Source: an uncultured Candidatus Saccharibacteria bacterium | Lineage (GTDB): Bacteria; Patescibacteriota; Saccharimonadia; Saccharimonadales; Saccharimonadaceae | DNA length: 64,000 nt | Direction of reading: 5' to 3' | Assembly: GCA_964499245.1 (NCBI GenBank) | Contig: CAZCIN010000001.1 | Location: forward strand, 5,106 to 69,105 | Shown here: positions 1 to 59,079 of the stretch, piece after piece | Layout: every line of letters starts with the position of its first letter | Position numbering within the stretch: the stretch's first letter is position 1 | The notes under the pieces: model-generated | Told to the model about the DNA's origin: nothing | The model's database searches: none | What the model saw: the letters and a program-made list of their open reading frames with translations, nothing else | Translations under genes and position numbers: made by a program

Positions 1-1
1 C

Positions 2-845: not shown

Positions 846-926
846 GGTGTCTGCTCCTTTCTTTTCTGCGTCACTCTATTAGTCACTCAGGTTGGCATTT
901 CCATCAAGTCTTGATATCATGCCGGA

Positions 927-2322: not shown

Positions 2323-2431
2323 CTGTATCCCACCTCCTTTTTGATTGGCGGCCACGGGAGGCTCTGCGGCACACCGCAGAAAGAAATCCCCGGTGTACCG
2401 CATGCAGTTGTTTCGCTGTTAAAGTTATGCT

Positions 2432-3048: not shown

Positions 3049-3096
3049 GTCTCTTCCCTCCTTCCTGCTATAGCCACGGTGCATAAGTTAAAAATA

Positions 3097-6253: not shown

Positions 6254-6266
6254 AATGCTGCCTCCT

Positions 6267-6482
6267 TTACCACCTGTCGCCATGCCGGTTTTTCCAGATA
6301 CGCCAGCCGATAGCTGCTCCGGCTGTCACCGCCGCAATAATGAGCAGCACCCACCAGACTTCGAGGAAGAACTGCACGCCCAGCCGGATCAGGTAGCCGC
6401 TGGCGGCAATGATGACAGCCGCCTCGAAAAGATATCCAATCCACCGGCCGGGGCCGCCCCTGTGGTCTCCACATTCGAACAT
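6267..6482 (-). CDS. Small membrane protein
   Basis: Two hydrophobic segments; sits within the operon. Confidence 0.6.
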   Translation of the reverse strand: MFECGDHRGGPGRWIGYLFEAAVIIAASGYLIRLGVQFFLEVWWVLLIIAAVTAGAAIGWRIWKNRHGDRW

Positions 6483-6488
6483 AAGCCA

Positions 6489-7169: not shown

Positions 7170-7803
7170 AATTTTTCTTCTCCTCTCTGTTTTTGCTGTC
7201 TGGCAAAGCAGACAGAATAGTGCCGCTGTATTTTGGTACTGGAAAACCGGGAACGACCACATCGGAATCAATCTCATTTCCCCAGGCAGCCCAGCCGTGC
7301 CTGCGCCGCCTTGCAAATAACTCCAGGTATGGGCCGGGAGACACACGCTCCACGATGTCATAAAATTCCTCCGGCTTGTGGCTGTGATCCTGTATAGGGA
7401 AAATCCCAACGTTTGGCTGGTTTTTTACCCTGACCGGGGCTTTGCCACGGGTGGCCAGGATGCAGTGTTCGGTGCAGTTTCTCAGGTATACGCCCAGACC
7501 GAGCCGGGGCTTGAACCATGTGAAAATAGAACGGGGTGTGAACCCCCATGCCCTCAGGATGGAGAAACCTTCCTCCATCGTGGCGTTGGTGACCCAGAGC
7601 CAGCAGTGCGCGTTCTCCGCACAGAGGCTTCCGACCGGCAGGGCTTTGATCCGCTCCAGCGTCATGAGTTTATAGTGGTTTACCGCACCATAATTTCCGC
7701 GCTGTTGCACATCCCAGGGCGGGTCAACGATTACCGTGGACGCGCCCTTCGGCATTGTGCCCGGCAGTATGGGAGCCTTTATTTTCATAGCATCAAAAAC
7801 CAT
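7159..7803 (-). CDS. MT-A70 family adenine methyltransferase (copy 1)
   Basis: VIVDPPW, HCWLWVTN, HSHKPEEF, LELFARR motifs. Confidence 0.9.
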   Translation of the reverse strand: MVFDAMKIKAPILPGTMPKGASTVIVDPPWDVQQRGNYGAVNHYKLMTLERIKALPVGSLCAENAHCWLWVTNATMEEGFSILRAWGFTPRSIFTWFKPRLGLGVYLRNCTEHCILATRGKAPVRVKNQPNVGIFPIQDHSHKPEEFYDIVERVSPGPYLELFARRRRHGWAAWGNEIDSDVVVPGFPVPKYSGTILSALPDSKNREEKKNYEF

Positions 7804-7988
7804 GCATTCCTTCCCGACTATTTAATTTTTATTGCCACACCGATTTGACAGGCTGTCAAACCGGCGGGCGATTGGTGCGATTATAACGCCTCCCCGCCAA
7901 AAGCCGTGGAAATATGTAAGTTATGCTTACGCCGTGAGCATAACTTTTACGGTATTGGCATTGCACAGCCCTGTCCATTGGCAGTGTC

Positions 7989-8243
7989 TCAGATATCCTT
8001 ATCCACGGTGTTTTCCCCAAACCCGTGCAGGCAGGCGGCGCTGAACATCTTGCTAAAAGCTTCCATGCCGTCATTGTCCAACAGAAACTCATCCTGGATT
8101 AGCTGACGGAGATACTTGTTTTCTTCCTGCAGATCTGTCAGCCTGCCGGAATTGAAAAAAACTGTATCGACAAGCCAGAGCAGTGCGCTGGCCATCAGCA
8201 GGAGCACAATAATAAGTATAATGATAACTATGTATCCATCCAT
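7989..8243 (-). CDS. Hypothetical protein with N-terminal TM helix
   Basis: ORF with RBS, co-oriented with the operon. Confidence 0.55.
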   Translation of the reverse strand: MDGYIVIIILIIVLLLMASALLWLVDTVFFNSGRLTDLQEENKYLRQLIQDEFLLDNDGMEAFSKMFSAACLHGFGENTVDKDI

Positions 8244-8248
8244 TCCGG

Positions 8249-8572
8249 CTACCTCCTTTCCATCATCTGCTGTAGGCTCTTCCTGGCGTACACCGCCAGT
8301 ATGGCTTCATAATACTCGCGCCCCAGCGGTGCCGCTTCGGATAATTTAGTTGCCATGAAAGCCAGCCCACCGGTATTCTCCATGATGGATTTGGCGAACA
8401 GTACATCCCGGCGGTTCTGGAGGATTGACAGCGCAGCGGACTCCGTGAAGTCCTCCGGGTGTACATACTCCCCTGCGCCTGCCGGGATGAGGCTGATGAT
8501 GTCCTCCGCCTCCGGCGGGGCGTCATAAGTGTTGTAGACATAGTTTCTGTTACTGGTTGTTTGTCTTCGCAT
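8249..8572 (-). CDS. Hypothetical protein, first gene of the mobilisation operon
   Basis: GGAGG RBS, 107-aa ORF. Confidence 0.6.
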   Translation of the reverse strand: MRRQTTSNRNYVYNTYDAPPEAEDIISLIPAGAGEYVHPEDFTESAALSILQNRRDVLFAKSIMENTGGLAFMATKLSEAAPLGREYYEAILAVYARKSLQQMMERR

Positions 8573-8683
8573 TGTGAAAACCTCCTTCTGATTTTTGGAG
8601 GGCTGTTTTATCCCTCTACAACAGAAAGGACTCGCTTTCTCTATTTGAGTAGTAAAAGCAAAATTTTCCTGGAAAAGGCGTAA

Positions 8684-8728
8684 AAAATAAGCCCGCGCTG
8701 TGTGATATGCACAGAACAGGCTTATTTT
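8684..8728 (-). terminator. Intrinsic terminator after the DUF11 gene
   Basis: AAAATAAGCC...GGCTTATTTT inverted repeat with A/T tails. Confidence 0.6.
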
Positions 8729-8755
8729 AGTTATATGGATATTTTAAGTACCGGT

Positions 8756-10003
8756 TTACTTATGACGTCGCAGTTTATAATACAATCGGATGATGTTTGC
8801 CAGGCATGCAACAATGAACCCCCAAAGGACAACCGTTATAATGACCGCAGCTTTTTCCGATTTTTTTACCCTTACCGCAGCATGATCCTGATAGATGGTA
8901 GAGCTGACCATACCTTGCGCCCAGTTGACAAGCACGTTGTCGCCACAGGCGAGATCTTTATCAACAACCTCAGCGGTAAAGCGCACCCAACCAGAGGCGT
9001 TGGCCTTATAAGCACCGATATTGATGCCAGTGGTAAAGAGGTCGCCATCTGGAGTGATCTGCTTACCCTCCTTGTGGTTAGAGTTGTAAAGGTAAGTTGT
9101 GTTCGCGACATAAGCCATGTTGTTTGGCAAAACGTCACGGATAATTACATTCTCTTGAATGTCATTAACAGTATTGTTGTGGAATTCGATTTGGTATTCG
9201 ACCCTATCACCGACCTTAGCGTCGACAGATTCGGTGAATTCATCATGCGTACCGACCAAGCGGACTTTCTTATCTATTTCAAATTCATAGTCATAAACCA
9301 CTCTTACCTTTAAGGTAATATAGCAGGCATACTGGTATCCGCCTGGCATTATGCCGTCCATTTTATCATAACCAATTAAAACGCCTTCCGCTGTTGTTGT
9401 GATTTTATCACCCAGCTCAAGTCCGTCTGGATAAGCATTGTTGTATATAATTGCTGAACCATAAACATATTCCAAATGGAAATTGGTGTCGCTGTGAAAA
9501 TTGACGTAATCCCAATATTTATCCGGGGTTGCATTACTGGAAGTAATAAATCCATTTACTTTAACAGTGGTGCCGCTGTTGTCGGGGATGCTTACCTGAA
9601 CTCTGGTATCCTGGGATGCCGCACCAGACTCTTCATCCTGCTGAGGTACGCTGTTATTATGCACATAGAGCCGGATAAGATATTCCCTTCCATCCTCAAC
9701 ATCCATCACGTCATTTCCGTACCAGTTACTTTTCGTATTATTGGCGATAATATCGGCATTTTGCGCAGAAACAAAATTTGGCTCGTAAGGCTGTGCCCCT
9801 TCTGGGTCAACAATGGAATTAAGCGTAACTGTATCCCCTAATGCCCCTGAGTTTATTTCCTCGATTGTGTAATGTGTGCGGCCACCGCTACTGTCTCCCC
9901 ATGCTAGAGTTTTTATCGGGCTCAGCATGCACAAAAGAATCACTACAGCCAAGCCAACTGGAAAAAGTGAGACATTTGCTTTGGATAATCTGTTCCCCAT
10001 CAA
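8756..10003 (-). CDS. Secreted, membrane-anchored DUF11-type surface protein
   Basis: Signal peptide, KVGDRVEYQIEF...VIIRDVLPNNMAYVANTT conserved-repeat motif, C-terminal TM helix. Confidence 0.7.
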   Translation of the reverse strand: MMGNRLSKANVSLFPVGLAVVILLCMLSPIKTLAWGDSSGGRTHYTIEEINSGALGDTVTLNSIVDPEGAQPYEPNFVSAQNADIIANNTKSNWYGNDVMDVEDGREYLIRLYVHNNSVPQQDEESGAASQDTRVQVSIPDNSGTTVKVNGFITSSNATPDKYWDYVNFHSDTNFHLEYVYGSAIIYNNAYPDGLELGDKITTTAEGVLIGYDKMDGIMPGGYQYACYITLKVRVVYDYEFEIDKKVRLVGTHDEFTESVDAKVGDRVEYQIEFHNNTVNDIQENVIIRDVLPNNMAYVANTTYLYNSNHKEGKQITPDGDLFTTGINIGAYKANASGWVRFTAEVVDKDLACGDNVLVNWAQGMVSSTIYQDHAAVRVKKSEKAAVIITVVLWGFIVACLANIIRLYYKLRRHK

Positions 10004-10992
10004 TTGTCACCTCCGTTGTCAATATCCGTTCCCGTACCAATATGGCCGATGTTGTAATGCTCGACTGGTTCTGGATTTTTGACTGTGACGTTCACATAGG
10101 CAGGGTCAATTCTTCCCGTTTGGACAATTATAGTGGATAAATGCTCATCTTCGTCCTGTATATCCTCCACAGCGTTGACTAGCAGATGTTCTGTCCATGC
10201 AATTTCTGGATTCTCAGTGACAGTGCTGAGCCTGTTTTTATTTGCCTCATCAGGATAGACATCCACGTCAATGAACTCCTGACCACCTGGGACAAGACAA
10301 ATATCTGGATTCATGACCGAAAAACTTATGATTTCCGGGCTGCCATCTTCATCAGGTTCTTCCTTTTTCGGAGGATTAGGTACAAAATCACTAAGATAAA
10401 TGTGCAATATAATCGCTAAGAAAATAAGTATTGCCACAATATTTCCGCTCAGCCATTTCAGGAATTTTCTTTTATCCCATTCTTTTTTTGGCGGCTTTGA
10501 CGGTACTGGTTTGGCACCGTCCAACTCTGCAAACACTTCATCTGCGAGTAACTTCAACTCGTAGCGGTCATTTTTCTGAATTTCATTGAGTAGCTCCTTG
10601 ACAACTCCCACTATTGCCTTATCTTCCTTGTTCCGTACAGTTTTGGTAGTGACTCCCATTTCATCTGCAATTTTTTTATATCTTGACCCTACGCCTAACT
10701 CACAGTATTTCTCAGAAAAACCGTTGATACCTAAAAGCAACTCTCGATCATCATCGTCTGTATACACCTTTAATACCCTTTTAGCATATGGTTGCCTAAA
10801 AGCCTTCCATTCTTCCTCCCTATGCTCTTTCCTGTGTTCCTTGATGTATTCATCTCCCACAAGTATTTGAACAAATTTAGATATATTGTAATCTGTCTCC
10901 CTATTGGTGCCGTCATGCTTTATTTCATACATGCACCTCGTTATCTGAACCTCTAAGTCCCCATAATTAGCTGTTTCCTTATTTCCAGACAC
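10000..10992 (-). CDS. Hypothetical bitopic protein: cytoplasmic HTH, TM helix, Ig-like C-terminus
   Basis: YKKIADEMGVTTKTVRN HTH-like segment, TM at IVAILIFLAIILHIYL, beta-rich C-terminus. Confidence 0.55.
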   Translation of the reverse strand: MSGNKETANYGDLEVQITRCMYEIKHDGTNRETDYNISKFVQILVGDEYIKEHRKEHREEEWKAFRQPYAKRVLKVYTDDDDRELLLGINGFSEKYCELGVGSRYKKIADEMGVTTKTVRNKEDKAIVGVVKELLNEIQKNDRYELKLLADEVFAELDGAKPVPSKPPKKEWDKRKFLKWLSGNIVAILIFLAIILHIYLSDFVPNPPKKEEPDEDGSPEIISFSVMNPDICLVPGGQEFIDVDVYPDEANKNRLSTVTENPEIAWTEHLLVNAVEDIQDEDEHLSTIIVQTGRIDPAYVNVTVKNPEPVEHYNIGHIGTGTDIDNGGDN

Positions 10993-11097
10993 GCAGACAC
11001 CCCTCCTTGCCTAAAAGATGTATAAATTATAACATTTTTTTCGCCTTTTGAAAATGCGCAAGAAAAATGGCTGCAGTATACACCGCAGCCACTTGGC

Positions 11098-11694
11098 TTA
11101 GATACATTCATATTCTGTGATGTCCGCAAGGATGCTCCATTTGTTAAGTATGTTGTTGTACTTCTTTGGGTCTTTAATTCGGAGATCGATGCTCCGCGCT
11201 CGGTATCCCACATCTTCATAAATGTAGGATGTCTGATTGCCATGCAGCCCAATCGTGTATTCAGGTCGTACCCCAGAAGACAATTCCGGACCCTTGACCT
11301 CAAGACGTAGATCTGCGGCATCATAAATCCCCAGAAAACCGTACATATTCGTCTCCACATGAAAAAAATCGAACAATATCGCTGTAGGCGAAACTTCGAT
11401 TTCCGTAATTTCCCACCCAGGGACGTGGCCCCTCAGAATTGATTTGTAGTTGCCCACAAAATGGTCCAGCTGTTCTGGGTCAAGTGTAGTATCGCGGAAC
11501 ATGTCGGAATCGATGTAGGGAAATACATACTTCTCCCATTGTTCATCCGTTTCAATCCTCATGTGGCCAGAATAAAATTCCACTTCCAAAGCCTGGCAAT
11601 GGCGAGGGGAAAATTCATGCATGCGATGGAAATCCTTGCCAACAATTTTGTATCCCGATGTGTCATAATCCCTTACATAAGATTCTACTCTCAT
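11098..11694 (-). CDS. Hypothetical protein
   Basis: AGGAGG RBS before MRVESY; own sigma70 promoter upstream. Confidence 0.6.
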   Translation of the reverse strand: MRVESYVRDYDTSGYKIVGKDFHRMHEFSPRHCQALEVEFYSGHMRIETDEQWEKYVFPYIDSDMFRDTTLDPEQLDHFVGNYKSILRGHVPGWEITEIEVSPTAILFDFFHVETNMYGFLGIYDAADLRLEVKGPELSSGVRPEYTIGLHGNQTSYIYEDVGYRARSIDLRIKDPKKYNNILNKWSILADITEYECI

Positions 11695-11868
11695 ATTCTT
11701 CCTCCTATTTTTTGCAAATTTGCACAATAATCGCATCATCGCCCATCCTGCGAGAGGAGAAGCGAGTTCTGCGATTATCGGGAGGGAAACGGGTAGATTA
11801 GATATGTATTAGACATACAGAATATTTTAGTATCTTAATATGCTTATAAGTTAGCTTTATCTAACTTA

Positions 11869-11904
11869 TGCTTTCATTGTAGCACACATGTTCGATTTTG
11901 TCAA
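11869..11904 (-). promoter_or_regulatory. Sigma70 promoter TTGACA-N17-TACAAT
   Basis: Read directly; same extended motif recurs at 18974, 26496 and 35372. Confidence 0.75.
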
Positions 11905-12366
11905 TACTTTTTATGTTTTTTCGTTTAATTTGGCAACCCTTATACAATAATGTGTGAAAGAATTATGCGTTTTTCTTCTCAGCGGTTTCAACTTTGTTTC
12001 ACGTTCATTTCAACTTGTTTTCACAATACAGACAGTTTCTAATCTCTCCCCTAAAATGTATTTAAGCAAGGCAAACCCCTACATCAAACCACAGAAAGCG
12101 GGGTGAAAATCTTCATTGGCGGTCGGGGGAGTTGACTGCTAAGACACTAGAAACCATTAACAAATTCATATCAGGCCACATGTGCGCAGTGAGGCGGGAT
12201 ACGACATACCACATCCTTATGACCGTGATAAAGGCGGTTGTTGGGAGTGGGGGTGTAAGTACCCTTGTTTCCTGCGCATCTTTTTTGCCGTACCTGGGTA
12301 CTGCGGGTTAATCCGATTCTTGGCATCCTGCCGTCACTGCCTCTCTGGCTGGAAAGAGAGGCAAAA

Positions 12367-12837
12367 ATGTCTGATTACAATGATTACATGGAACTCAAAA
12401 AATACTATTTCGAATATCTGTCGATGGACATCATGACCCTAGAAATCAAACAACTATACTGGCGCAGCCTCAAAGGTTCAGAAAGAAGCTCCCGCTGCAG
12501 GCTGGAGAACGGCACCCGCTGCATGGCAAACTGCCGCAACTGCCCAAGACAACGAGAGGGCAATCCGCTTTCCCTTGATGCCTTGTCGGAAACAGGCATA
12601 GAGGCCGCCGATGTGTTCTCTTTGGAAGACCATATCATGGAACTGGAACTATCAGAGGCTCTCGCTGATGCCATCAACGCCCTGAGCGAGCAGAATCGAA
12701 TCATTATCCTCCTGTTCAGCGAAGGTGCCACAGAACGGGCTATCGCAGCAAAGGTCGGCATGAGCCAGAAAGGGGTCAACAACCGAATACACAAAATTAT
12801 TAATATATTGCGAGAAAGCCTCAAGGGCTTCTTCTAA
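12367..12837 (+). CDS. Sigma70 region-4 domain protein of the type found on clostridial mobile elements
   Basis: LSEQNRIIILLFSEGATERAIAAKVGMSQKGVNNRIHKI region-4 HTH; start moved to MSDYND. Confidence 0.75.
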   Translation: MSDYNDYMELKKYYFEYLSMDIMTLEIKQLYWRSLKGSERSSRCRLENGTRCMANCRNCPRQREGNPLSLDALSETGIEAADVFSLEDHIMELELSEALADAINALSEQNRIIILLFSEGATERAIAAKVGMSQKGVNNRIHKIINILRESLKGFF

Positions 12838-12842
12838 GGTTA

Positions 12843-12869
12843 GTGCCGCCAGCCAAATACTGGCGGCAC
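12843..12869. terminator. Hairpin between convergent genes
   Basis: GTGCCGCCAG / CTGGCGGCAC 10-bp stem. Confidence 0.6.
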
Positions 12870-12876
12870 CGCTTCG

Positions 12877-13461
12877 TTAATCTGTCTTTTCCATCTTCAT
12901 ATGCTCTCTCAGATAACTTTCCTGACAGCCAAGGATTACCAGTGGGTCGATTTTTTCTACCAAATAACTTTTCTGCATTAGCTCCAGCCCATATATGATA
13001 AGCCCTATATTATGGTCTGCCGATGCACTGAGAAGTCTAATAGCTTCTCCATACAGGCATTCATCACAATCAAATCTGGATAGATCCTCCTCGATCAGAT
13101 AGAGCAGCCATTGGAGTGCTTCGGCTATAAAAAAATTAACATCTTGGGTAAGCTCCTCATTTTTCTTTGCCAAAACTCCCATCGCATCATTAAAAATATC
13201 CGACTCTACAGCATAATAAATGCCTAATCCGATATAGAGCAAATCTGACAGGTCTGTATCTTCCGGAATATCCAGCCTGTCGCACCCCAATAGTTCAAGG
13301 GTGCGTAACCCGTAGATTACTGTTGTGAACGCATAGTGAAGTTTATACTCTTTCACTAAATAATCAGCCACACCATATTTATCCTCACCGTGCGGATATG
13401 GTGTCAGCAGCGGAGTCGCTATCTGCCCCTGTTCATCAATAATTCTTATCATCTCTACCAT
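12877..13461 (-). CDS. Hypothetical protein
   Basis: 194-aa ORF with AGGAGG RBS. Confidence 0.6.
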   Translation of the reverse strand: MVEMIRIIDEQGQIATPLLTPYPHGEDKYGVADYLVKEYKLHYAFTTVIYGLRTLELLGCDRLDIPEDTDLSDLLYIGLGIYYAVESDIFNDAMGVLAKKNEELTQDVNFFIAEALQWLLYLIEEDLSRFDCDECLYGEAIRLLSASADHNIGLIIYGLELMQKSYLVEKIDPLVILGCQESYLREHMKMEKTD

Positions 13462-13573
13462 CCCTATATGCCTCCTTCTGGTTTATAGAGCCGCCGGGCA
13501 GCCATTATTGCCCCGTCTCTCTATAGTGCAGAGGACAATTATTGGGTGTTTGAGAACTGGAAAGAACAGAAAC

Positions 13574-14146
13574 CTAGAACAGCCGCATCTCCAGATATGC
13601 TTTGTCCAGATCATCCTGCGCCACACCGAGGTAGCGTTTCGTGACCTCATAGCTACTATGGTTATAAATTTCCGTAATGATTATGGGTGACACGTTTCCG
13701 CTTGTCCACGCATGGTATCCCCATGTCTTTCTGAGACTATGACAGCCAAGGTTGCCATCCAAGCCTAATTCTGTAGCTGCGTCCTGTATAATCCGCCAAG
13801 CCTGCACCCGGCTGATTGGACGCGCATTTTTACGGTTGTTTACAAAAACAAAATCGCTGTGGCTGTGTGGGTAGTACAGCCGCAGCGCATCAATGGCCTG
13901 TTCGTTTAGGGCAATCAATTTTGCTTTGCCGGTTTTTTGTTCTGTAATTTTGACGTGTACCTTGAAGCGATCCCGCTCCACGTCATAAATCTCTGACCAG
14001 CAGATTCCTAATAAGTCGCTGATTCGTAATGCCGTACAGGTACCAAGCACCACCAGCGTATAGTTCCTTAATTCCCCTTTCTCCAAAAAATAATCCGCTA
14101 AAGCATGAAGCTGGGACTGGTCTCGGATTGGTTCAGTTGTTGCCAT
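13574..14146 (-). CDS. Small tyrosine recombinase (catalytic domain only)
   Basis: LRISDL, HSLRKTWGYH, TKRYLG supply the R-H-R-Y catalytic set; no arm-binding domain. Confidence 0.9.
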   Translation of the reverse strand: MATTEPIRDQSQLHALADYFLEKGELRNYTLVVLGTCTALRISDLLGICWSEIYDVERDRFKVHVKITEQKTGKAKLIALNEQAIDALRLYYPHSHSDFVFVNNRKNARPISRVQAWRIIQDAATELGLDGNLGCHSLRKTWGYHAWTSGNVSPIIITEIYNHSSYEVTKRYLGVAQDDLDKAYLEMRLF

Positions 14147-14471
14147 AATACATTCCCTCCTAATCTGTTTTTGCAATAAGTATAAAGCTCACAGATTAGG
14201 ATGTAACAAACTTTGAAAATTATTACCTCTTTTGGCAGATATTTTATGGTTAACAAGGGTAATGTGTGGTAAAACGTTCCTCAAAAGTGGACGAACCACT
14301 AAAATATGTTTGGACAATACCGGAAAAGAGCCATAAAATGCCCCTTATGTGCCTTGAACGCAGGGGTAAAATATGCTAAAATAAGACAGACTTCAAAAAA
14401 TGTTACATCCGACCCGCCAGGGCGGTTTTTTGACGAGCAAAACAAATATAACAGAGAGGAAAAAGTGAAGA

Positions 14472-18973: not shown

Positions 18974-19009
18974 ATACTTTCATTGTAGCACAGATTGACT
19001 AAAAAGTCA
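18974..19009 (-). promoter_or_regulatory. Sigma70 promoter TTGACT-N17-TACAAT for the radical SAM gene
   Basis: Read directly. Confidence 0.75.
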
Positions 19010-19120
19010 ATAGCGTTTATGTTTTTTGGTAGAAAAATCAAGAAAAATGGTCTTGATTGAAGCATTTGGGGCGAAAATATGATATAATTGGAGGAAGATA
19101 ATAAACAAATAAGGAGTTCT

Positions 19121-20529: not shown

Positions 20530-20571
20530 ATGCCTTATATTATACCATATTCAGAAGTTAGAACGAAGCTA

Positions 20572-20635
20572 ATAACCCTTTGCTCGGGCCGCTCCGGGGA
20601 GAAAGCCCAAGTCCTACTCCCTCATAAATGGTTAT
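20572..20635 (+). repeat. Dispersed hairpin repeat, copy a
   Basis: Core CTCGGGCCGCTCCGGGGAGAAAGCCCAAGTC in an ATAACC/GGTTAT stem. Confidence 0.75.
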
Positions 20636-20665
20636 CAGCTTCGCTTCAGCACCGATACGGTTTAA

Positions 20666-24915: not shown

Positions 24916-24974
24916 AATATTTTTATATGTTGTAGATTAATATAATCGACACAGCGCAGAGCAAATGATAAGCC

Positions 24975-25047
24975 CACACTGGCTTTTCTCGACCTTGCGC
25001 TCCAGGCCGCGCGGCCAAGTCTTTACGGTCTTCAAAAAGCCAGTGTG
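24975..25047 (+). repeat. Dispersed hairpin repeat, copy b
   Basis: Core CTCGACCTTGCGCTCCAGGCCGCGCGGCCAAGTC in a CACACTGGCTTTT/AAAAGCCAGTGTG stem. Confidence 0.85.
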
Positions 25048-25129
25048 AAACCTATCATCTTTCTAGTACAGCATATACCATTAAAATCCAAAATGGAGAC
25101 AGATCGGGGGGGCGATACTGTCTCCATTT

Positions 25130-25206
25130 TGGTGGCGGGAGTTGGATTTGAACCAACGACCTTTTGGTTATGAGCCAAACGAGCTACCAGGCTGCTCTAT
25201 CCCGCG
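25130..25206 (-). tRNA. Initiator tRNA-fMet(CAU)
   Basis: C1:C72 mismatch, A11-U24, anticodon CAT, encoded CCA; terminator hairpin at 25088-25132. Confidence 0.9.
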
Positions 25207-26389: not shown

Positions 26390-26495
26390 AATAAATTCCC
26401 TCCAATTTTATATTTTAATTTGAAACGAAAGTTAACAGCTACACACAGGGGTTTTAAGCTTTAGTTCTTAATTTGCTTAACTTCCCCCATAGTTA

Positions 26496-26531
26496 TACTT
26501 CCATTGTAGCACAGATTGTCCAAAAAGTCAA
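26496..26531 (-). promoter_or_regulatory. Sigma70 promoter TTGACT-N17-TACAAT
   Basis: Read directly. Confidence 0.75.
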
Positions 26532-28330
26532 GAGTGTTTATGCTTATTTTGCAATTCTGGCAAAGATTTGGTGGAATTTTTTGAGATTTTGACAGTTTTT
26601 CGGGGATTTGACAAGGTTGACGAGTTTGAGTGGATCGTGGCATAGCTGGGTAGGAAAATATAGTATAACAGGGGTGGGAGAAGGTAGATGTGAAGAGCGT
26701 TGGGGAGGCCGGCGAAGAATTGCAGAGAGAGGAGATAGGCGGTGATAAGAGCGACGAGGAAGGGGAGATTTTGAGGGTTTTTGAGGGGCTTTGAGCGGAA
26801 GGCGAAATAGAGGGCGGCGAGGAGAAGGGCGACACCGAAAAGACCGGTCTCGAGGAGGAGGGAGATGGGCTGATTTTGGACGATTTCTTTGGGGCTGGGG
26901 TTATTCACGGGGTCGAAACGGTGCATGGCGACGCCGGCACCACCGAGACCAACGCCGAAGATCATGGTGGCTGGAGACTGAGACCAGGTGGCAAGGGCGG
27001 CGGAATTAAGGCCGAGACGAACATCGGTGGAATCGGCGACGTAACCATCAAATATGGGGGCAGGCAACTCGTCTTCAGATACGGTAACGCTCTCTGGACG
27101 CTCCCTGCGGGTGGCGTCCAGACCCGCGTTAGCCTGACCATCAGTACCTTCAGACAACCTCCCTGCCCCCTCATCGATGGTTGTGCTACCATCGTCCGGC
27201 TCGGTCTGACTATTTGTGCGAAAATCCAAGAAGCCGAGGGAAAGCTGGTGAATGGATTTAGTAACGGCGGAGGTGAAAGTCTCAGAAGTGGGGCCGAAAT
27301 GAGCGAAAGTTCCCTGTAAGCCGAGCGAAAGGAGGAAAGTGGCGACGGGAATAATAATGAGGGCGGGGCGGAAGGTGTGGCGACACAGGGTGAAGATAAT
27401 TAAAATAAGAAGGCCAAGGGCGTAGGAATAGATGGCGCCACGGGAAAAAGTGAAGAAAAGCGTAGTAGAAAATAAAATTGCACAGACGACAAGAGGGAGT
27501 TTTACGGAAGTTTTGCGCAGGTGTGGAAAAGTGGTTGTGGTTTGTTCGGCTCTTATATGTTCGGTTTTTGCGCGGTGTTCGGTTTTATTGGGGTGGGGTG
27601 TGGTTTCGCTGGTGGTTTGGCAGAGAAGGTAGAGAGCAAGAAGGGTGGGGGCGAGGAGGAGATTACCCATGAATTGCGGCTCGATGGCGAAGCCATTGGG
27701 ATGGGGGAAGCCGAAGGAGCGATAAGTGCAGCCGGCGCAGAGGAGAGTGGTTTCGCGGGAGAGGCCACAGGAATCGAGTATAGACTGGATAAAGCAAAAG
27801 AGGCATACCACAGCGGTGCTTACGAAGAAGGCCCCGAGGACCCAAATTTTGAGCTCTCGTGGGGGTTCTAGCCGGGGCGAGAGGCGGAGGATAGCAAAAA
27901 TGGCGAAAAAGAGGAGCCAGAGGATGCCGGCGGTGAGGATAGTGCGGAGGGGGTTGGCGGACCAGAAGACTGACAGGGTGGCATAGAGAGGAAAAAGCAA
28001 CCATAGTAGAAACTTTGTGACGTCTTTTCTCGAGCTGCGCTCCGGGGCGCGCGCCCGAGTCTTTATGCTCTCGAAAAGAGCCGCAAAGTTCCCTCTACTA
28101 ACTTTTTCCGCTTTGGGGCGCTGATCCAAGTCTTTACGGTCTCGAAAAAGCACCACAAAGTTGATGAAAGCAATAAGGTCGAAGAGGATGAGCCAGAGGA
28201 GCGGGAGGGAGAGCTCGAAATTCATGGAAGAATTGGCGCCGAGAGAGATGATGGGGTAATAGGAGAAAAAGAGGACGGCGGGGAGGGCGACAAGCAGGGC
28301 GAAATAGGCCATGCGGAAGAATTTAGACAT
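26528..28330 (-). CDS. O-antigen ligase/polymerase-like polytopic membrane protein with low-complexity insertions
   Basis: Many TM helices, PNGFAIEPQFMGN, TFSRGA, GVGLGG, LHIY motifs; start moved to MSKFF overlapping the upstream stop. Confidence 0.75.
   Translation of the reverse strand: MSKFFRMAYFALLVALPAVLFFSYYPIISLGANSSMNFELSLPLLWLILFDLIAFINFVVLFRDRKDLDQRPKAEKVSRGNFAALFESIKTRARAPERSSRKDVTKFLLWLLFPLYATLSVFWSANPLRTILTAGILWLLFFAIFAILRLSPRLEPPRELKIWVLGAFFVSTAVVCLFCFIQSILDSCGLSRETTLLCAGCTYRSFGFPHPNGFAIEPQFMGNLLLAPTLLALYLLCQTTSETTPHPNKTEHRAKTEHIRAEQTTTTFPHLRKTSVKLPLVVCAILFSTTLFFTFSRGAIYSYALGLLILIIFTLCRHTFRPALIIIPVATFLLSLGLQGTFAHFGPTSETFTSAVTKSIHQLSLGFLDFRTNSQTEPDDGSTTIDEGAGRLSEGTDGQANAGLDATRRERPESVTVSEDELPAPIFDGYVADSTDVRLGLNSAALATWSQSPATMIFGVGLGGAGVAMHRFDPVNNPSPKEIVQNQPISLLLETGLFGVALLLAALYFAFRSKPLKNPQNLPFLVALITAYLLSLQFFAGLPNALHIYLLPPLLYYIFLPSYATIHSNSSTLSNPRKTVKISKNSTKSLPELQNKHKHS
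28011..28162 (+). repeat. Dispersed hairpin repeat, copy c plus a partial second unit, in frame inside a CDS
   Basis: Core CTCGAGCTGCGCTCCGGGGCGCGCGCCCGAGTC; second CCAAGTCTTTACGGTCTCGAAAAAG. Confidence 0.8.
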
Positions 28331-29768
28331 TGGGGGCGTCCTCAGGGGCAGGGTCGGCGGCAGGTTCAGGGATGGGAGCGGGATTTTTGAGAGCTTGATC
28401 GATGAAAGCGGTGATTCCCTCGCGGAATTTGTTGACGTCGAACGGTGCGGCTGAGGCGGAGATTTTTTGACGGTCAAAATGATGGTCGGGGAATTCCTGA
28501 AGGGCGGTGACAAGTGAATCGACGGTTTGCTCGCGGAAGAAAAGGCCGTTTTCGCCGGGGTGCACAAAATCGCGGCTGCCACCGTCGGCGAAGGCAATCA
28601 CCGGGCAACCGGCGGCTAAAGCTTCGACGGGGGCGATACCGAAAGGCTCGAGACTTGGAAAAATGAAAGCGCGGGCATTTTGCAGGTGCTCGGCGAGCTG
28701 ATCGGAAGTGAGCCAAGGGAGAAATTCGATATGACTGGTGTCGCGGGCGGGGACGCTCATGGCGAGTTGTTGGAGTTTTTTGTGCTCGGGGCCGTCGCCA
28801 ATCACTTGCAGAGGGAGACCGAGGCGATTGCAAGCGGAGATAGCGAGATCGACGCGTTTCCAGGTAACCTGACGACAAGAGATGACAAAAGGATGATTTT
28901 GGGGCTGGCTGGAGTTAGAGTTATCCACAGAGTTTTGCACAGATTTATCCACAGATTTTGCGGAGTTTTCCACAGGTTTAACAGGGGTAGTGATAGATTT
29001 GGAGAATTTTTGGACGTCAACGGGCGGATAAATAATGGTGGCGTCGCGGTGATAGTATTTTTTGATCTGTTCGGCGGCGTAGCTAGAGATGGTGACGAAA
29101 TAATCCGGCTGCTGGGCAGCGGCGAAATCGGCTTTTCTAAGAGGTTTCACTAAGAGACGGAAAAAGAATTTAACGATAGGATTCAGGAAACCGAAGCCAG
29201 GATTTTGGAGATAGCGGTCGTAAGATTGCCAATAATACTGAGTGGGGACATGGCAATAACAGATATGGGTGGTGTGGGGCTGCATAGGGAGCAAGACTTC
29301 GTACTTCCCTTTCCGAGTGGCGGTGCGATAAGGCTTGGGCTGAGTGCGGACAGATTTGGCTTCGGCACCGGTAACAGAGATGACGAGGTCGTAATGGCTG
29401 AGGTCGAGATGGGAGAAATAATGCTGGCGCAGAGGGCCAAGAATGCGACGGAAAGTGGCGGGAAAAAGATTGAGCCAGCCGGTTTTGACGGTGGCGTCTT
29501 TGAACCAGTCGATGCGCTTTGGGCGATACTGAGAGGTATAGATGGGGGCGTCGGGATAGAGGTGGTGGAGCTCAAGAAGGACTTTTTCGGCACCGCCTTT
29601 TTCCGTTAGCCAATCACAAACGAGGGCAACAGTAGGGCGGGAGGGAGTGGTTGATTCACGGCGGTCAGAAGCAGAAGATTCTCCGGCTTCACCGGACGAA
29701 AAGGTTCCACGAACGGCGTCGCGCTGACCTTTTCTAGAATCTTCTGCTTTTGACCGGCTCATCAACAT
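28323..29768 (-). CDS. Glycosyltransferase family 4 (GT-B)
   Basis: GGAEKV, RQVTWKRVDL, EPFGIAPVEALAAG motifs. Confidence 0.9.
   Translation of the reverse strand: MLMSRSKAEDSRKGQRDAVRGTFSSGEAGESSASDRRESTTPSRPTVALVCDWLTEKGGAEKVLLELHHLYPDAPIYTSQYRPKRIDWFKDATVKTGWLNLFPATFRRILGPLRQHYFSHLDLSHYDLVISVTGAEAKSVRTQPKPYRTATRKGKYEVLLPMQPHTTHICYCHVPTQYYWQSYDRYLQNPGFGFLNPIVKFFFRLLVKPLRKADFAAAQQPDYFVTISSYAAEQIKKYYHRDATIIYPPVDVQKFSKSITTPVKPVENSAKSVDKSVQNSVDNSNSSQPQNHPFVISCRQVTWKRVDLAISACNRLGLPLQVIGDGPEHKKLQQLAMSVPARDTSHIEFLPWLTSDQLAEHLQNARAFIFPSLEPFGIAPVEALAAGCPVIAFADGGSRDFVHPGENGLFFREQTVDSLVTALQEFPDHHFDRQKISASAAPFDVNKFREGITAFIDQALKNPAPIPEPAADPAPEDAPNV
28921..28974 (+). promoter_or_regulatory. Cluster of DnaA-box sequences within the GT4 coding region
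   Basis: TTATCCACA at 28921 and 28945, TTTTGCACA at 28933, TTTTCCACA at 28966. Confidence 0.6.
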
Positions 29769-29818
29769 ACTCCCTCTCACCCTACTGTTGCTCTACATTG
29801 CGATTGATTAGCCATGAT

Positions 29819-31246
29819 CTATTTTGCACCTTTTCTTAGTAAAACAGCGCCGACGGTGCGAAAAAGGATGCGAAAGTCGAGCCAAAGACTCCAGTTCTGA
29901 ATGTAATAAATATCAAGGGCGCGACGTTCGGCAAAAGAGATGTCGCGGCGGCCGGAAACCTGGGCAAGACCAGTAAGGCCAGATTTGACCGAGAGAAGTA
30001 AGGAGCGGTCGCCATAATGACGGAGTTCGCCAGGGACGAGAGCACGGGGGCCGACTAAGGAAATATCACCACGAAGGACATTAAAGAGCTGTGGGAGCTC
30101 GTCAAGTGAGGTAGCGCGCAAGAAACGGCCAACTTTGGTAACGCGGGGGTCGTTTTTGATCTGATCGCCATCGGCGCGGTATTTCTTAATGAGATTCGGC
30201 TTGCCCATTTTGGTGAAGGCTTCCTCGGGAGAAATACCGCAATATTCGGGGTACATGGAGCGGAATTTATAGATTTTGAAGCGGCGATTATAGCGAGAGA
30301 GGCGAGTTTCGGCGTAGATGGCAGGGGCGTGAGGGTCGGCGATTTTCTCGGCGAGCCAGATGATAGCCATAGGGATAGCAGCGAGCAGAACTAGGATTGA
30401 GCCGAGAATGAGATCGGTACAACGTTTGACAAAACGAGCGCTACCAGCGAGAGGAGTGACAGGAACAAAGATAGTGGGGGTGCTACCGATGAGCTCGATT
30501 TCGCCCATTTGCGAAGAAAGATCGGCGGTCGACGGCACGTAATAATAGAGAAGATGGTGGTTGAGAGCCTGGCGATAGACATATTCGGAACTCTTGGAAT
30601 CGGTCTGGAAAATGACGTCGGGGCGAGTCTTTTTGAGGGCTTCTTTGAGCGAAGAATATTGCTTTTTGCGGAGGTCGGCGGGGATGTATTTGGCGCCGGC
30701 GACGATGCCAGCGAGCGAAAAGCCGGATTCGGGATAGGCAGCGATGTAATTGGCGATGGACTCGGTACTTTTATTATTACCGATGACGATGGCGCGAAGG
30801 GCAGTTTTACGACTGTGTTTGAGGGCGAAATTGCGAATAAAACGGACGAGGCCGCGGAAAAGACAGAGGAACAGGAAGCAGGCGAAGGCGGCATAGATGG
30901 CCATGATACGGACTGGGAAGAGATCGAGTTCGAGGAAGAAATCGATGGAAATGATAGTCATCATACCAACAAGCGAGGCAAAAAAGAGGCGGGCGACCTC
31001 AGTCCAGCGGCTGCTGCGCAGGAAGATGGATTTTTTGTAGAGGCCGAAGCAGGCGAGAATGATGACGTAAATTGGGATGAGAGAGAGCATGGTGAGAACG
31101 AAACGGCCGGGATCGGCGGTGAAGTAGAAAGGGCGCTGGTCGAGATGGGTGCGCATGAAATAGGCCGCCAAAAAGGAGAGGACAATAGAAAGAGCGTCCC
31201 CTAAAATGAGGAAGACGTGGAAGACCACACCGAAATCCCGTTTCAT
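29819..31246 (-). CDS. Polyprenyl glycosylphosphotransferase (initiating sugar transferase)
   Basis: [45 protein letters not shown]; start moved to MKRDFG. Confidence 0.92.
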
Positions 31247-31276
31247 AGGGTAATTATAGCATAAATAGATATATAG

Positions 31277-31349
31277 GGCTAGTAACCCTTTGCTCGGACC
31301 GCTCCGGGCCGCTTGGCCAAGTCGATATCCTCGCAAAGGGTTTCTAGCC
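31277..31349 (+). repeat. Dispersed hairpin repeat, copy d
   Basis: Core CTCGGACCGCTCCGGGCCGCTTGGCCAAGTC in an AACCCTTTGC/GCAAAGGGTT stem. Confidence 0.8.
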
Positions 31350-31399
31350 TTAAGATCGTTTTTGCATAATTCCTCTATAAAATGGGGTATAATTGGGGT

Positions 31400-35120: not shown

Positions 35121-35371
35121 AATGCAAATCTCCTTTCTTTTTGGCGGGGTTTCACCTACGAAACCTATCAACGTTGAGATATTGCTACTTGGTAGCATAC
35201 GACACACAAGAATCTATGCGCCCTATGCCACCAAGTAACAGGTAACCAAAAGCGATTTTAAGTTGCAAGACCTTCTAAGCGTGAAGAGGTATTCTTCGTA
35301 AGAACAATACCCTGCATACACAGGGTTCAATCTGCGCAACAGTCTATGGCGCGTAGATTTGATTATCTACG

Positions 35372-35407
35372 TACTTCCATTGTAGCATACATTGCTCAAA
35401 ATGTCAA
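35372..35407 (-). promoter_or_regulatory. Sigma70 promoter TTGACA-N17-TACAAT
   Basis: Read directly. Confidence 0.75.
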
Positions 35408-35544
35408 TGCTTTTTTAGAAGAATCTGTATTGGGGTGATAAGATATAAGATATGCATTACTATACTATGACTAAATATGTCATAGTATGTCTTTATTACG
35501 CGTAACGTGGGGGTAATAGGCGTTATCTATGGTATGATATATTT

Positions 35545-52954: not shown

Positions 52955-52964
52955 AGGCTCCTTT

Positions 52965-58872: not shown

Positions 58873-58929
58873 ATAGTCATTATATCACAAGAGGTAGTTG
58901 TAGGCAATTCACCCCGATATAGACAGATG

Positions 58930-59018
58930 GAGGCTTTACGCTAAGCTTTTCTCGACCTAGCGCTCCAGGCCGCGCGGCCAAGTCTTTACGGTCTTCGAAA
59001 AACTTAACATAAAGCCTC
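58930..59018 (+). repeat. Dispersed hairpin repeat, copy e
   Basis: Core CTCGACCTAGCGCTCCAGGCCGCGCGGCCAAGTCTTTACGGTCTTC, nearly identical to copy b, but in a different stem (GAGGCTTTA/TAAAGCCTC). Confidence 0.85.
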
Positions 59019-59079
59019 TACTAGCTGCTTATCATTAGGGAGAATTGCTTCTATACATCTCTTATGTTATAATTATTAT

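What the first reader, a model, noticed from the sequence alone, without database searches (positions are those of the whole stretch)
28011..28162. Palindromic repeat inserted in frame in the O-antigen-ligase-like gene
Seen: one full and one partial hairpin unit lie between TM helices and translate without stops as DRKDLDQRPKAEKVSRGNFAALFESIKTRARAPERSSRKDVTKF. Known: coding-sequence insertion of palindromic repeats is described for Rickettsia palindromic elements. Inference: an analogous protein-remodelling repeat in a CPR lineage.
Basis: partly seen in the sequence, partly recalled or inferred. Interest (0 to 1): 0.65.

Follow-up and report, generated by a model that had tools for sequence, protein, structure and literature searches.

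The report
In-frame palindromic repeats in a Saccharibacteria gene
A dispersed, roughly 90-110-base hairpin-forming repeat of a gut Saccharibacteria-like lineage sits in frame inside a membrane glycan-polymerase/ligase-like gene (and, in relatives, inside trmD and at the end of tdk), adding disordered peptide to a loop, much as the Rickettsia palindromic elements do.

Summary
At 28005-28162 there is one complete and one partial copy of a hairpin repeat. Four more complete copies lie in the window, at about 20.6, 25.0, 31.3 and 59.0 kb. Both in-gene units are antisense to a Wzy_C/O-antigen-ligase-like gene on the minus strand (26528-28333). They are read without stops as about 45 residues between TM2 and TM3.

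- **Orthologues:** Distant orthologues (P0082, P0101) lack both the DNA repeat and the segment. Every close relative carries 1-4 units in this same loop, read in all three frames.
- **Unit turnover:** Units differ in subfamily even between genes that are otherwise 100% identical.
- **Structure of the repeat:** It has a conserved asymmetric apex and arms that covary (92.8% paired against 74.7% in shuffles).
- **Copy number:** About 35-40 copies per genome, estimated from read depth.
- **Known families:** It matches no Rfam family.
- **Other genes:** In other Ca. Saccharibacteria contigs it adds about 30 aa in frame to TrmD. In a related metagenome contig (L025) it supplies a 40-aa C-terminal tail to thymidine kinase.

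How the repeat moves, whether it has a nucleic-acid-level function, and whether the peptide is made are all unproven. I rate it a new member of a known kind, of moderate to good interest.

The parts
26528..28333 (-). Wzy_C / O-antigen-ligase-like polytopic membrane protein gene (about 600 aa). This is the host gene of the insertion. It lies in a cell-surface polysaccharide locus.
   Evidence: Pfam PF04932, E 3.9e-9. Full-length alignment with 24 orthologues, with many invariant residues kept. Neighbours are a GT4 glycosyltransferase and a Bac_transf sugar transferase, and the synteny is conserved in L001-L009.
28005..28099 (+). Complete palindromic repeat unit inside the gene. The element's orientation is +, antisense to the gene. 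It encodes roughly residues 79-110 (…RGNFAALFESIKTRARAPERSSRKDVTKFLL…).
   Evidence: Fold -38.8 kcal/mol, z -4.06. nhmmer E 2.2e-14. CM 99.7 bits, E 1e-23. Core 88-89% identical to L013 and L003_wzy.
28100..28162 (+). Partial, older repeat unit. It has the apex CGCTTTGGGGCGCTGATCCAAGTC (28109-28132) and the 3' arm, but its 5' arm is reduced to AACTTTTT. It encodes …NFVVLFRDRKDLDQRPKAEKVS…, read in a different frame of the element because units are spaced 71 nt apart.
   Evidence: the repeat finder D1/D5. nhmmer E 2.3e-10. A homologous degenerate first unit is present in L001, L003, L005 and L009.
24965..25058 (+). Intergenic copy (subfamily v1), downstream of tRNA-Met (25130-25206, minus).
   Evidence: Fold -36.3 kcal/mol, z -4.99. 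CM 84 bits. tRNA-Met found. A syntenic copy is at L001 13381-13437.
58925..59022 (+). Intergenic copy (subfamily v1), in a divergent intergenic region.
   Evidence: Fold -35.3 kcal/mol, z -3.14. CM 68.5 bits. Its core is 95% identical to the gene-internal unit of L001.
31274..31352 (+). Intergenic copy (subfamily v2), between the start of the Bac_transf gene and a divergent epimerase gene.
   Evidence: Fold -42.7 kcal/mol, z -4.86. CM 65 bits. A syntenic copy is at L001 7201-7253.
20564..20643 (+). Intergenic copy (subfamily v2), between the stop of a Mur-ligase-like gene and tRNA-Arg(CCT).
   Evidence: Core pattern match. CM 63.7 bits. The fold is weaker here (z -1.83). tRNA-Arg found.

Best explanation
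**What the stretch is.** It is an array of two units of a dispersed hairpin-forming repeat about 90-110 nt long. The family has about 35-40 v1-type copies per genome and belongs to a rodent- and ruminant-gut lineage that is most likely Candidatus Saccharibacteria. Each unit is a long imperfect palindrome. Its arms keep their pairing but not their sequence. The arms close on a conserved asymmetric apex (…TTTnCTCG…CGCTCC-[GC hairpin]-AAGTC…CGAAAA…).

**How it got into the gene and why it persists.** Copies have entered the DNA encoding the first cytoplasmic loop (TM2-TM3) of a Wzy_C/O-antigen-ligase-like protein. That loop is a disordered, basic linker, and the element can be read without stops there. 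Insertions that keep the frame are therefore tolerated and are read through (inferred) as extra linker peptide.

**The site is a hot spot that turns over.**
- One degenerate unit is shared by the close relatives sampled at DNA level except L008, and so is old.
- Further units of different subfamilies have been added or exchanged.
- This gives 1-4 units per allele, read in all three frames.
- Whole cassettes are swapped by recombination between otherwise identical genes.

**Shown and inferred.**
- Shown: family membership, in-frame position, absence of the segment from distant orthologues, turnover of units, structural covariation, and occurrence in trmD and tdk of relatives.
- Inferred: that the units arrive by a trans-acting, structure-specific mobilisation or by gene conversion. 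The conserved part is the apex, not the termini, which points away from a classical TIR/DDE MITE and towards hairpin recognition. Also inferred: that the peptide itself is a tolerated passenger and not a selected domain.
For: **Family and structure**
- 6 units at 5 sites in the window; the strict pattern matches 4 of them (the intergenic copies) against 0 expected by chance.
- 21 full copies from 14 loci align with 16 consensus pairs, 9 of which show compensatory changes.
- 92.8% of cells are paired against 74.7% in shuffles (0 of 500 shuffles as good). The covariation score is 0.53 against 0.21, and 0.09-0.14 when the structure is slid.

**Insertion relative to orthologues**
- P0082 and P0101 lack the segment, and L007 has no DNA copy.
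- L001, L003, L005, L008 and L009 carry 1-4 units at the same loop, read in frames giving FAMLFESIKTWPRGPERSSRK, FFEDRKDLAxRPGA..REK and GFCEGIRLGLAPRSGKNEK.

**Turnover**
- The L003 and L009 genes are 100% identical except for two blocks. One block is the unit plus the start of TM3, and it holds a v1 unit in L003 but a v2 unit in L009.
- The terminal unit in L001 is 95% identical to the intergenic copy at 58945. The window's unit at the same place is closest to L013 and L003_wzy.

**Nucleic-acid-level constraint inside the CDS**
- The apical stem is GGGCGCGCGCCC in the window and GGCCCCGCGGCC in L003. This is compensatory, and it changes the peptide from TRARAP to TWPRGP.

**Tolerated position**
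- AF2 gives pLDDT below 50 for residues 71-100, between helices with pLDDT 85-91.

**Generality**
- TrmD of Ca. Saccharibacteria RGIG2241 has about 28-30 extra residues encoded by the element, relative to solved TrmD structures. Its orthologues range from 215 to 299 aa, and all the length variation is at that loop.
- In L025 the element supplies residues 194-233 of thymidine kinase, beyond the complete TK domain.

**Copy number and assembly**
- Core depth divided by single-copy depth is about 17000/430 in one run and about 1280/37 in another.
- An independent contig spans 27100-28700 with 0 differences.
Against: - **No empty site for the dispersed copies.** No clean filled-versus-empty site was found for an intergenic copy, and no target-site duplication could be identified. 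Transposition as such is therefore not demonstrated.
- **No candidate mobilising gene.** No transposase-like gene lies near any copy. Of the 48 window ORFs shortlisted, about 40 (1-53.5 kb) were scanned with Pfam; those from 54 to 64 kb were not. The scans found only an island integrase and relaxase unrelated in position.
- **Gene conversion could explain the unit differences.** Differences between alleles could come from homologous recombination or gene conversion between strains, not from new insertions. The divergent block between L003 and L009 extends beyond the unit into TM3.
- **A function for the hairpin is not excluded.** The strong conservation of the apex and the covariation of the arms are also what a functional RNA or ssDNA motif would show.
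- **No sign the element is adapted for coding.** Depletion of stop codons in the cores is not significant (p 0.05-0.7).
- **Expression untested.** No true metatranscriptome holds the sequence, so neither transcription nor translation of the insert could be tested.
Confidence: 0.78

Rival explanations
1. The hairpins are functional nucleic-acid motifs, either a structured RNA or an ssDNA/dsDNA protein-binding site. Possible roles include a recombination or replication-associated site, an mRNA stabiliser or attenuator, or an antisense RNA. On this view they are kept by selection wherever they occur, including inside the gene, and the peptide is a side effect. This can coexist with mobility.
For: - The loop and apex nucleotides are invariant (TTT.CTCG, CGCTCC, AGTC, C.AAAA) while the stems covary, across different species.
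- A compensatory change in the apical stem inside the CDS alters the peptide.
- The v3 subfamily has a conserved G·U (G·T) pair in one orientation only: column 42-81 shows 9 GU and 0 AC.
- All 5 window sites are co-oriented on the G-rich strand.
Against: - No Rfam family matches, even at E up to 10.
- Orientation relative to transcription is inconsistent: antisense in the Wzy-like gene and tdk, sense in trmD, and either way in intergenic positions.
- There is no U-run for a terminator.
- The partial units decay (z -0.5).
- Copy number and array length vary freely between near-identical strains.
- 'Arms-only' and 'empty' alleles of trmD exist in intact genes.
Confidence: 0.25
2. The segment is removed before translation, or from the protein. 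It would then behave like a mini-intron or an intein-like intervening sequence, and the extra peptide would never be part of the mature protein.
For: CPR bacteria are known, from general knowledge, to carry many intervening sequences in rRNA genes. The element is a stable hairpin that could be a processing substrate.
Against: - Every allele examined keeps one continuous open frame through arrays of 1-4 units of different lengths and frames. The other frames of the array contain stops. Such a constraint is not expected if the segment were excised. This comes with an ascertainment caveat: the alleles were found as called ORFs.
- No ribozyme or intron family matches.
- There are no intein motifs in 30-45 aa.
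Confidence: 0.04
3. The segment is an ordinary protein-level repeat or linker that arose by duplication within the gene and is selected for its basic cytoplasmic peptide. The DNA palindromy and the intergenic look-alikes would be incidental.
For: The loop is positively charged, as expected for a cytoplasmic loop. Loop length varies among even the distant orthologues.
Against: - The same DNA occurs in intergenic positions and in unrelated genes.
- Units are read in three different frames, giving unrelated peptides.
- Pairing is conserved but the amino acids are not.
- Units at one site belong to different subfamilies that are shared with intergenic copies.
Confidence: 0.02
4. Assembly artefact: a repeat-induced chimera or collapse in a metagenome-assembled contig.
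For: Repeats of this kind do break assemblies. Many short, high-depth unitigs exist for the core, and P0019 starts inside a unit.
Against: - An independent Logan contig of 4918 nt spans 27100-28700 with 0 differences at single-copy depth.
- The same architecture is seen in many independent assemblies and samples.
Confidence: 0.01

Closest known systems
Rickettsia palindromic elements (RPE-1 and related families; Ogata et al. 2000/2002, as summarised in PMC10969869)
   Same: - A dispersed palindromic repeat of about 100-150 bp in a reduced-genome, host-dependent bacterium.
- Copies occur both between genes and in frame inside unrelated housekeeping genes.
- The inserted peptide lies in surface or loop positions compatible with the fold.
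- There are several subfamilies.
   Different: - A different phylum, and no sequence relationship has been shown (not tested against RPE consensus sequences).
- The units here are shorter, with a core of about 56 nt and a whole length of 85-115 nt.
- Units pile up as head-to-tail arrays at single hot spots and are read in all three frames.
- Alleles differ between near-identical strains.
- The most conserved part is the apex, not the whole element.
- Far fewer intragenic cases are documented so far.
Bacterial MITEs with in-frame intragenic copies (ERIC, BOX, Anabaena MITEs, QMITE1; reviewed in PMC10969869)
   Same: It is small, non-coding-capacity, multi-copy and able to form a hairpin. It occasionally creates in-frame fusions.
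   Different: - No conserved terminal inverted repeats were seen; the termini are the least conserved part.
- No target-site duplication was found.
- No parent IS was identified.
REP/REPIN elements mobilised by RAYT, and IS200/IS605-derived palindrome-associated elements (ssDNA hairpin recognition)
   Same: - Recognition appears to be by structure plus a few fixed bases.
- The arms covary.
- Copies cluster.
- The window copies are co-oriented on the G-rich strand. This would fit ssDNA-based mobilisation, but it is only a lead, based on 5 sites.
   Different: - REPs are 20-40 nt and extragenic.
- No RAYT or TnpA(Y1) gene was found in the DNA held here.
- No conserved 5' GTAG-like tetranucleotide was identified.

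Membership tests
RPE-like in-frame palindromic repeats (functional class) | Multi-copy dispersed palindromic element able to form a stable hairpin | tested here: met
   6 units at 5 sites in the window. About 35-40 copies per genome from depth. z-scores -3.1 to -5.0 for four of the five full copies (-1.83 for the copy at 20564-20643). Covariation supported.
RPE-like in-frame palindromic repeats (functional class) | Copies inserted in frame in unrelated protein-coding genes without disrupting the ORF; orthologues lack the segment | tested here: met
   Wzy-like gene. trmD. tdk C-terminal tail.
RPE-like in-frame palindromic repeats (functional class) | Insert lies in a loop or surface position compatible with the fold | tested here: met
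   pLDDT is below 50 for residues 71-100, between confident TM helices. The TrmD insert falls between two alignment blocks that are contiguous in solved structures.
Rickettsia RPE families (homology) | Sequence similarity to RPE-1…RPE-10 consensus sequences | not tested
   No RPE sequences were available in the tools. The strict pattern occurs only in Ca. Saccharibacteria among species-representative genomes, so homology is unlikely.
Insert retained in mRNA and protein (as shown for RPE) | Transcription and translation through the element | not testable with these tools
   The runs that hold the sequence are DNA metagenomes, and the 'RNA?' runs hold contigs of more than 50 kb. Indirect support only: the frame is kept in all alleles.
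Classical MITE (DDE-transposase-dependent) | Conserved terminal inverted repeats shared by all copies | tested here: not met
   In alignment A3 the outer columns are the least conserved and the centre is invariant. The arms differ between copies of one genome but pair within each copy.
Classical MITE (DDE-transposase-dependent) | Target-site duplication flanking each copy | tested here: inconclusive
   No clean filled/empty pair exists for the intergenic copies. In the trmD series from empty to filled, no direct repeat longer than about 2-3 nt is visible.
REP/RAYT or IS200/IS605-derived elements | Associated Y1 (HUH) transposase gene in the genome | not testable with these tools
   Only 64 kb of the genome plus short loci are held. 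Pfam scans of about 40 of the 48 shortlisted window ORFs (1-53.5 kb; 54-64 kb not scanned) found none.
Described structured RNA families (Rfam 15) | Covariance-model match at or near the gathering score | tested here: not met
   Only tRNAs reach the gathering score. The best hits at E up to 10 are noise, at 18 bits or less against 40-86 needed.

The most novel reading that the evidence does not exclude
The repeat may be a previously undescribed class of hairpin-recognised mobile element, or a site for a structure-specific recombination system, in Saccharibacteria/CPR.
- Its conserved asymmetric apex would be bound by a dedicated trans-acting protein.
- It would insert preferentially next to or into existing hairpins on the transiently single-stranded template.
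- It would thereby build hypervariable in-frame cassettes in conserved genes (the Wzy-like gene, trmD, tdk).

This would be a convergent but mechanistically distinct counterpart of the Rickettsia palindromic elements, and a source of rapid protein-loop variation in ultra-small epibionts.
Probability: 0.3. Interest if true: 0.75.

Novelty: new member of a known kind. Interest (0 to 1): 0.6.

Why it matters
In-frame 'protein-coding palindromes' have been regarded as a peculiarity of Rickettsia. A recent MITE review only conjectures that the same process happens elsewhere (PMC10969869).

The present case shows the same phenomenon in an unrelated lineage that is also genome-reduced and host-dependent. 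Its extra features are hot spots with arrays of 1-4 units, use of all three frames, and allele swapping between near-identical strains. An essential enzyme, TrmD, is among the genes affected.

**Practical consequences**
- These repeats break assemblies.
- They create spurious ORF calls, such as P0122.
- They inflate apparent protein diversity in CPR metagenomes.

**Biological value**
- They offer natural experiments on which protein loops tolerate 30-90 extra residues.
- The conserved-apex, covarying-arm architecture points to a recognition factor that has not yet been identified.

Tried and rejected
1. **Peptide search for other host proteins.** I searched the 5.8-billion-protein set with concatenated repeat-encoded peptides. 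The word index returned only 28 candidates and missed even P0005, so the search was uninformative. It did yield P0121, a truncated orthologue, and P0122, a spurious ORF over another copy on the same contig.
2. **Expression.** The runs that hold the sequence are DNA metagenomes from rodent gut. The runs guessed as 'RNA?' hold contigs of more than 50 kb, and the listed RNA runs are host transcriptomes. No conclusion is possible.
3. **Empty sites and target-site duplications for intergenic copies.** The orthologous intergenic regions in L003, L004, L008 and L009 are too diverged or rearranged to compare.
4. **GC-skew switch at 12-14 kb as a replication origin.** Rejected. Bases 1-14.2 kb are an integrative, conjugative-like island of different composition.
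5. **'The element is specially stop-free.'** Per-core tests are not significant (p 0.05-0.7). The pooled test (3.67 against 2.38 open frames) is pseudo-replicated, because the copies are homologous.
6. **Known RNA families or ribozymes.** None match.
7. **Inverted pair in L014 as a possible autonomous element.** The enclosed ORF looks CYTH-like by eye and is not a transposase.
8. **Second variable segment of the gene.** This is the 29-aa indel flanked by 'EPEQ' in relatives. It is not palindromic (z -0.98) and is not part of this family.
9. **P0122 locus look-up.** This failed because the protein is not on record.
Full report
**1. The observation**

The minus strand of 26528-28333 encodes a polytopic membrane protein of about 600 aa. 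It matches Pfam Wzy_C (O-antigen ligase/polymerase family, E 3.9e-9). The gene sits between a GT4 glycosyltransferase and a Bac_transf sugar transferase, inside a large cell-surface polysaccharide locus. That locus contains rmlABCD-type genes, several GT2 genes, an ABC-2 exporter, UDP-galactopyranose mutase, RgpF and a ChW-repeat protein.

Translating 28011-28162 on the minus strand gives NFVVLFRDRKDLDQRPKAEKVSRGNFAALFESIKTRARAPERSSRKDVTK without stops. A neighbouring frame has four stops.

The DNA contains two units of a repeat.
- **Complete palindrome, 28005-28099.** It folds at -38.8 kcal/mol with z = -4.06.
- **Partial unit, 28100-28162.** It keeps the apex and one arm but not the other arm, and does not fold better than shuffles (z = -0.5).

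The two units start 71 nt apart, so they are read in different frames of the element.

**2. It is a family, not a chance palindrome**

The same sequence occurs at 20578, 24982, 31288 and 58945, always on the + strand. The core pattern gives 4 matches against 0.00 expected. These 4 are the intergenic copies; the two in-gene cores deviate from the strict pattern and were found by the repeat finder and nhmmer. A covariance model run without filters over both strands of the window finds exactly the five full copies (64-100 bits) and, weakly, the partial one. It finds nothing in any other CDS.

Each copy is a long imperfect palindrome of 85-115 nt.
- **Arms.** They resemble AGTAGAGG-CTTTRCGATG-CTTTTCTCGASC.
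- **Apex.** The arms close on an asymmetric apex, TGCGCTCC-GGCCGCGCGGCC-AAGTCTTTA.
- **Subfamilies.** Three can be told apart, v1 to v3.

Read depth gives a copy number. Depth over the core is about 17000 against about 430 for flanking single-copy sequence in one run, and about 1280 against 37 in a second run. That is roughly 35-40 v1-like copies per genome.

An independent assembly of a source run spans 27100-28700 with no differences, so the structure is not an assembly artefact.

**3.

1630 homologues were found. In an alignment of 25 of them the TM2-TM3 loop is the most length-variable part of the protein's N-terminal half.
- **Most distant orthologues examined** (P0082, P0101; 46-49% identity). 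They have a minimal loop, …RSHQPN-QLPGISDR-RFFLL…. The P0082 locus (L007) has no DNA copy of the repeat.
- **Intermediate orthologues** (45-55% identity). They have unrelated loops of 25-55 aa.
- **All close orthologues** (62% identity or more). They carry extra sequence. At the DNA level this consists of 1-4 repeat units, all antisense to the gene: L008 has 1, L003 and L009 have 2, L001 has 3 and L005 has 4.

The units are read in all three frames of that orientation. This produces three unrelated peptide types:
- FAMLFESIKTWPRGPERSSRK
- FFEDRKDLAxRPGAxxREK
- GFCEGIRLGLAPRSGKNEK

This is decisive against a protein-level repeat. It is what in-frame survival of a DNA element predicts.

**4. Dynamics at the site**

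A degenerate first unit is shared by the window, L001, L003, L005 and L009, so it is old.

Only the last unit in gene orientation is a complete palindrome. Each earlier unit lacks the arm that faces its neighbour. This could arise in two ways: nested or adjacent insertion, or deletion of the perfect palindrome that two adjacent units would create. I could not decide between them.

Units at the same position belong to different subfamilies.
- The terminal unit of L001 is 95% identical in its core to the intergenic copy at 58945.
- The window's unit is closest to L013 and L003_wzy, at 88-89%.
- The L003 and L009 genes are 100% identical over about 1780 nt except for two blocks. One block (nt about 213-385) holds a v1 unit in L003 and a v2 unit in L009, together with the start of TM3.

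The loop cassette is therefore exchanged by recombination between strains, and units are either added or converted from dispersed copies.

**5. Structure is what is conserved**

Twenty-one full copies from 14 loci give a consensus of four helices with 16 pairs, 9 of which show compensatory changes.
- 92.8% of cells are paired, against 74.7% in shuffles (0 of 500 shuffles as good).
- The covariation score is 0.53, against 0.21 in shuffles and 0.09-0.14 when the structure is slid.

The invariant positions are in the unpaired apex and internal loops: TTT.CTCG, CGCTCC, AGTC and C.AAAA. The outer ends are the least conserved part. This is the reverse of a classical TIR-bearing MITE. It suggests recognition of a folded strand plus a few fixed bases.

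Inside the coding sequence the apical stem changes in a compensatory way, from GGGCGCGCGCCC in the window to GGCCCCGCGGCC in L003. The peptide changes with it, from TRARAP to TWPRGP. The constraint, or the homogenising mechanism, therefore acts on the nucleic acid and not on the peptide.

No Rfam family matches, even at E up to 10.

**6. Where the peptide sits**

By the positive-inside rule the basic loop is cytoplasmic. An AlphaFold2 model has mean pLDDT 63 and pTM 0.65. It places residues 71-100 in a segment with pLDDT below 50, between TM2 (H38-69, pLDDT 85-91) and TM3 (H99-123). The insert is a disordered linker extension. Nothing suggests that it forms a domain.

**7. Generality: other genes and other genomes**

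*Genomes.* In 185,579 species-representative genomes the strict DNA pattern occurs in only three contigs. All three are labelled Candidatus Saccharibacteria, from goat duodenum and from a second study. A metagenome scan added 11 real copies.

*trmD.* In Ca. Saccharibacteria RGIG2241 the element lies in frame, in sense orientation, inside trmD.
- Against solved TrmD structures the alignment splits: query residues 3-97 and 126-240 match chain residues 26-119 and 119-233. The element therefore adds about 28-30 residues.
- TrmD orthologues at 80-90% identity range from 215 to 299 aa, with all length variation at this one loop.
- The DNA forms a series: empty (L028), arms only as a 42-nt hairpin (L026), arms plus core (L011), and the same outer arms around about 200 nt of further hairpins (L027).

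*tdk.* In L025 the element lies antisense at the 3' end of the thymidine kinase gene. It supplies residues 194-233 and the stop codon, beyond a complete TK domain, and it abuts the start of tmk.

*Intergenic copies.* The other copies are intergenic. In one metagenome (WFLX01) near-identical copies precede members of a paralogous gene family and were apparently duplicated along with them.

**8. Mechanism: what is shown and what is inferred**

*Shown*
- A dispersed palindromic family.
- In-frame residence in three unrelated genes.
- Absence from distant or empty alleles.
- Rapid turnover at hot spots.
- Structure-level conservation.

*Inferred*
- The units spread by a trans-acting, hairpin-recognising activity, by gene conversion among copies, or by both.
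- Only insertions that land in tolerant loops or termini, and that keep the frame, survive.
- The peptide is a passenger.

*Leads that fit ssDNA-based mobilisation but are too weak to count as evidence*
- All five window sites are co-oriented on the G-rich strand.
- The v3 subfamily has a G·U/G·T pair conserved in one orientation only.

*Negative findings*
- No transposase candidate was found in the DNA held; the window ORFs from 54 to 64 kb were not scanned.
- No target-site duplication could be defined.
- Stop-codon depletion of the cores is not significant, so there is no evidence that the element is adapted for coding.

**9. Comparison with known systems**

Functionally this is the same kind of thing as the Rickettsia palindromic elements and the rarer in-frame MITE insertions reviewed in PMC10969869. 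Membership of the RPE families by homology was not tested and is unlikely.

It fails the defining TIR feature of classical MITEs. It is longer than REPs and, unlike them, occurs inside genes. The features that may be new are the hot-spot arrays read in three frames and the conserved-apex, covarying-arm design.

**10. Verdict**

I found no description of such elements in Saccharibacteria or Patescibacteria in the searchable literature. I classify it as a new member of a known kind, with interest 0.6.

Open points are expression of the insert, the mobilising factor, and whether the hairpin has a function of its own.

Noticed in passing
window 1-14200: An integrative, conjugative-like island. Its composition differs from the rest of the window (GC 53-56%, against 43-52% for 8-64 kb), and its GC skew is negative. 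It encodes a Replic_Relax relaxase-like protein (3097-4080), a T4SS coupling-protein-like ATPase (4073-6283), two tandem MT-A70 methyltransferase genes (6489-7803, a 300-nt direct repeat at 76% identity), a DUF11 protein, a sigma-70 r4 protein and a short tyrosine integrase (13574-14176). The sign change in skew at 12-14 kb marks this boundary and is not a replication origin.
   Followed up: partly
window 11868-11921, 18974-19027, 26495-26548, 35371-35424: A conserved 54-nt box. On the minus strand it reads as a strong sigma-70-type promoter (TTGACT…TGTGCTACAAT) in front of several genes. The copy at 26495 overlaps the last codons of the Wzy-like gene. Read depth over it is about 4 times single-copy depth, so there are more copies in the genome.
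   Followed up: no
Wzy-like gene, window about 27050-27250 and 27480-27620; relatives L008 10763-10876: Two further hypervariable segments of the same gene. One is a periplasmic-loop region with large indels. The other is a 29-aa indel in relatives, flanked by a direct repeat (EPEQ…EPEQ). The indel is not palindromic (z -0.98) and is unrelated to the hairpin family. The L003 and L009 alleles also differ in a second recombination block at about nt 1490-1620.
   Followed up: partly
L027 4553-5452 (trmD of GCA_017516075.1), L026 1264-1953: The trmD hot spot also holds other nested palindromic material. In L027 about 200 nt of multiple hairpins lie between the same outer arms, and several alleles share a different insert peptide (…FSEAGLEFSSTSYAG…VRNIRVENSNQ…). 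This suggests additional palindromic families in these genomes. L026 keeps only the arms, as a 42-nt hairpin.
   Followed up: partly
L016, L018, L019, L022, L024 (WFLX01 metagenome contigs): Near-identical copies of the element lie immediately upstream of members of a paralogous gene family (…FPYSGYFDSGTS…YWSS-like; by recollection this resembles the Fibrobacter-type major paralogous domain). The homology starts about 25 nt before the element. The element seems to have been duplicated with the gene, or to mark cassette boundaries.
   Followed up: no
window 28323-29780 (GT4 gene) and P0122 (elsewhere on the same 144-kb contig): ORF callers are misled around these repeats. P0122 is a 90-aa 'protein' that simply reads through another intergenic copy (…LAFLDLALQAARPSLYGLRKA…). 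The mechanical ORF at 29819-31336 starts inside the 31288 copy (MRGYRLGQAARSGPSKG…). The GT4 orthologues vary from 429 to 492 aa at the N-terminus, and this was not examined.
   Followed up: no
window 51158-53026: A ChW-repeat (clostridial hydrophobic W) protein gene with three 141-nt tandem DNA repeats (51177-51568). This is an ordinary repeat-domain surface protein.
   Followed up: no
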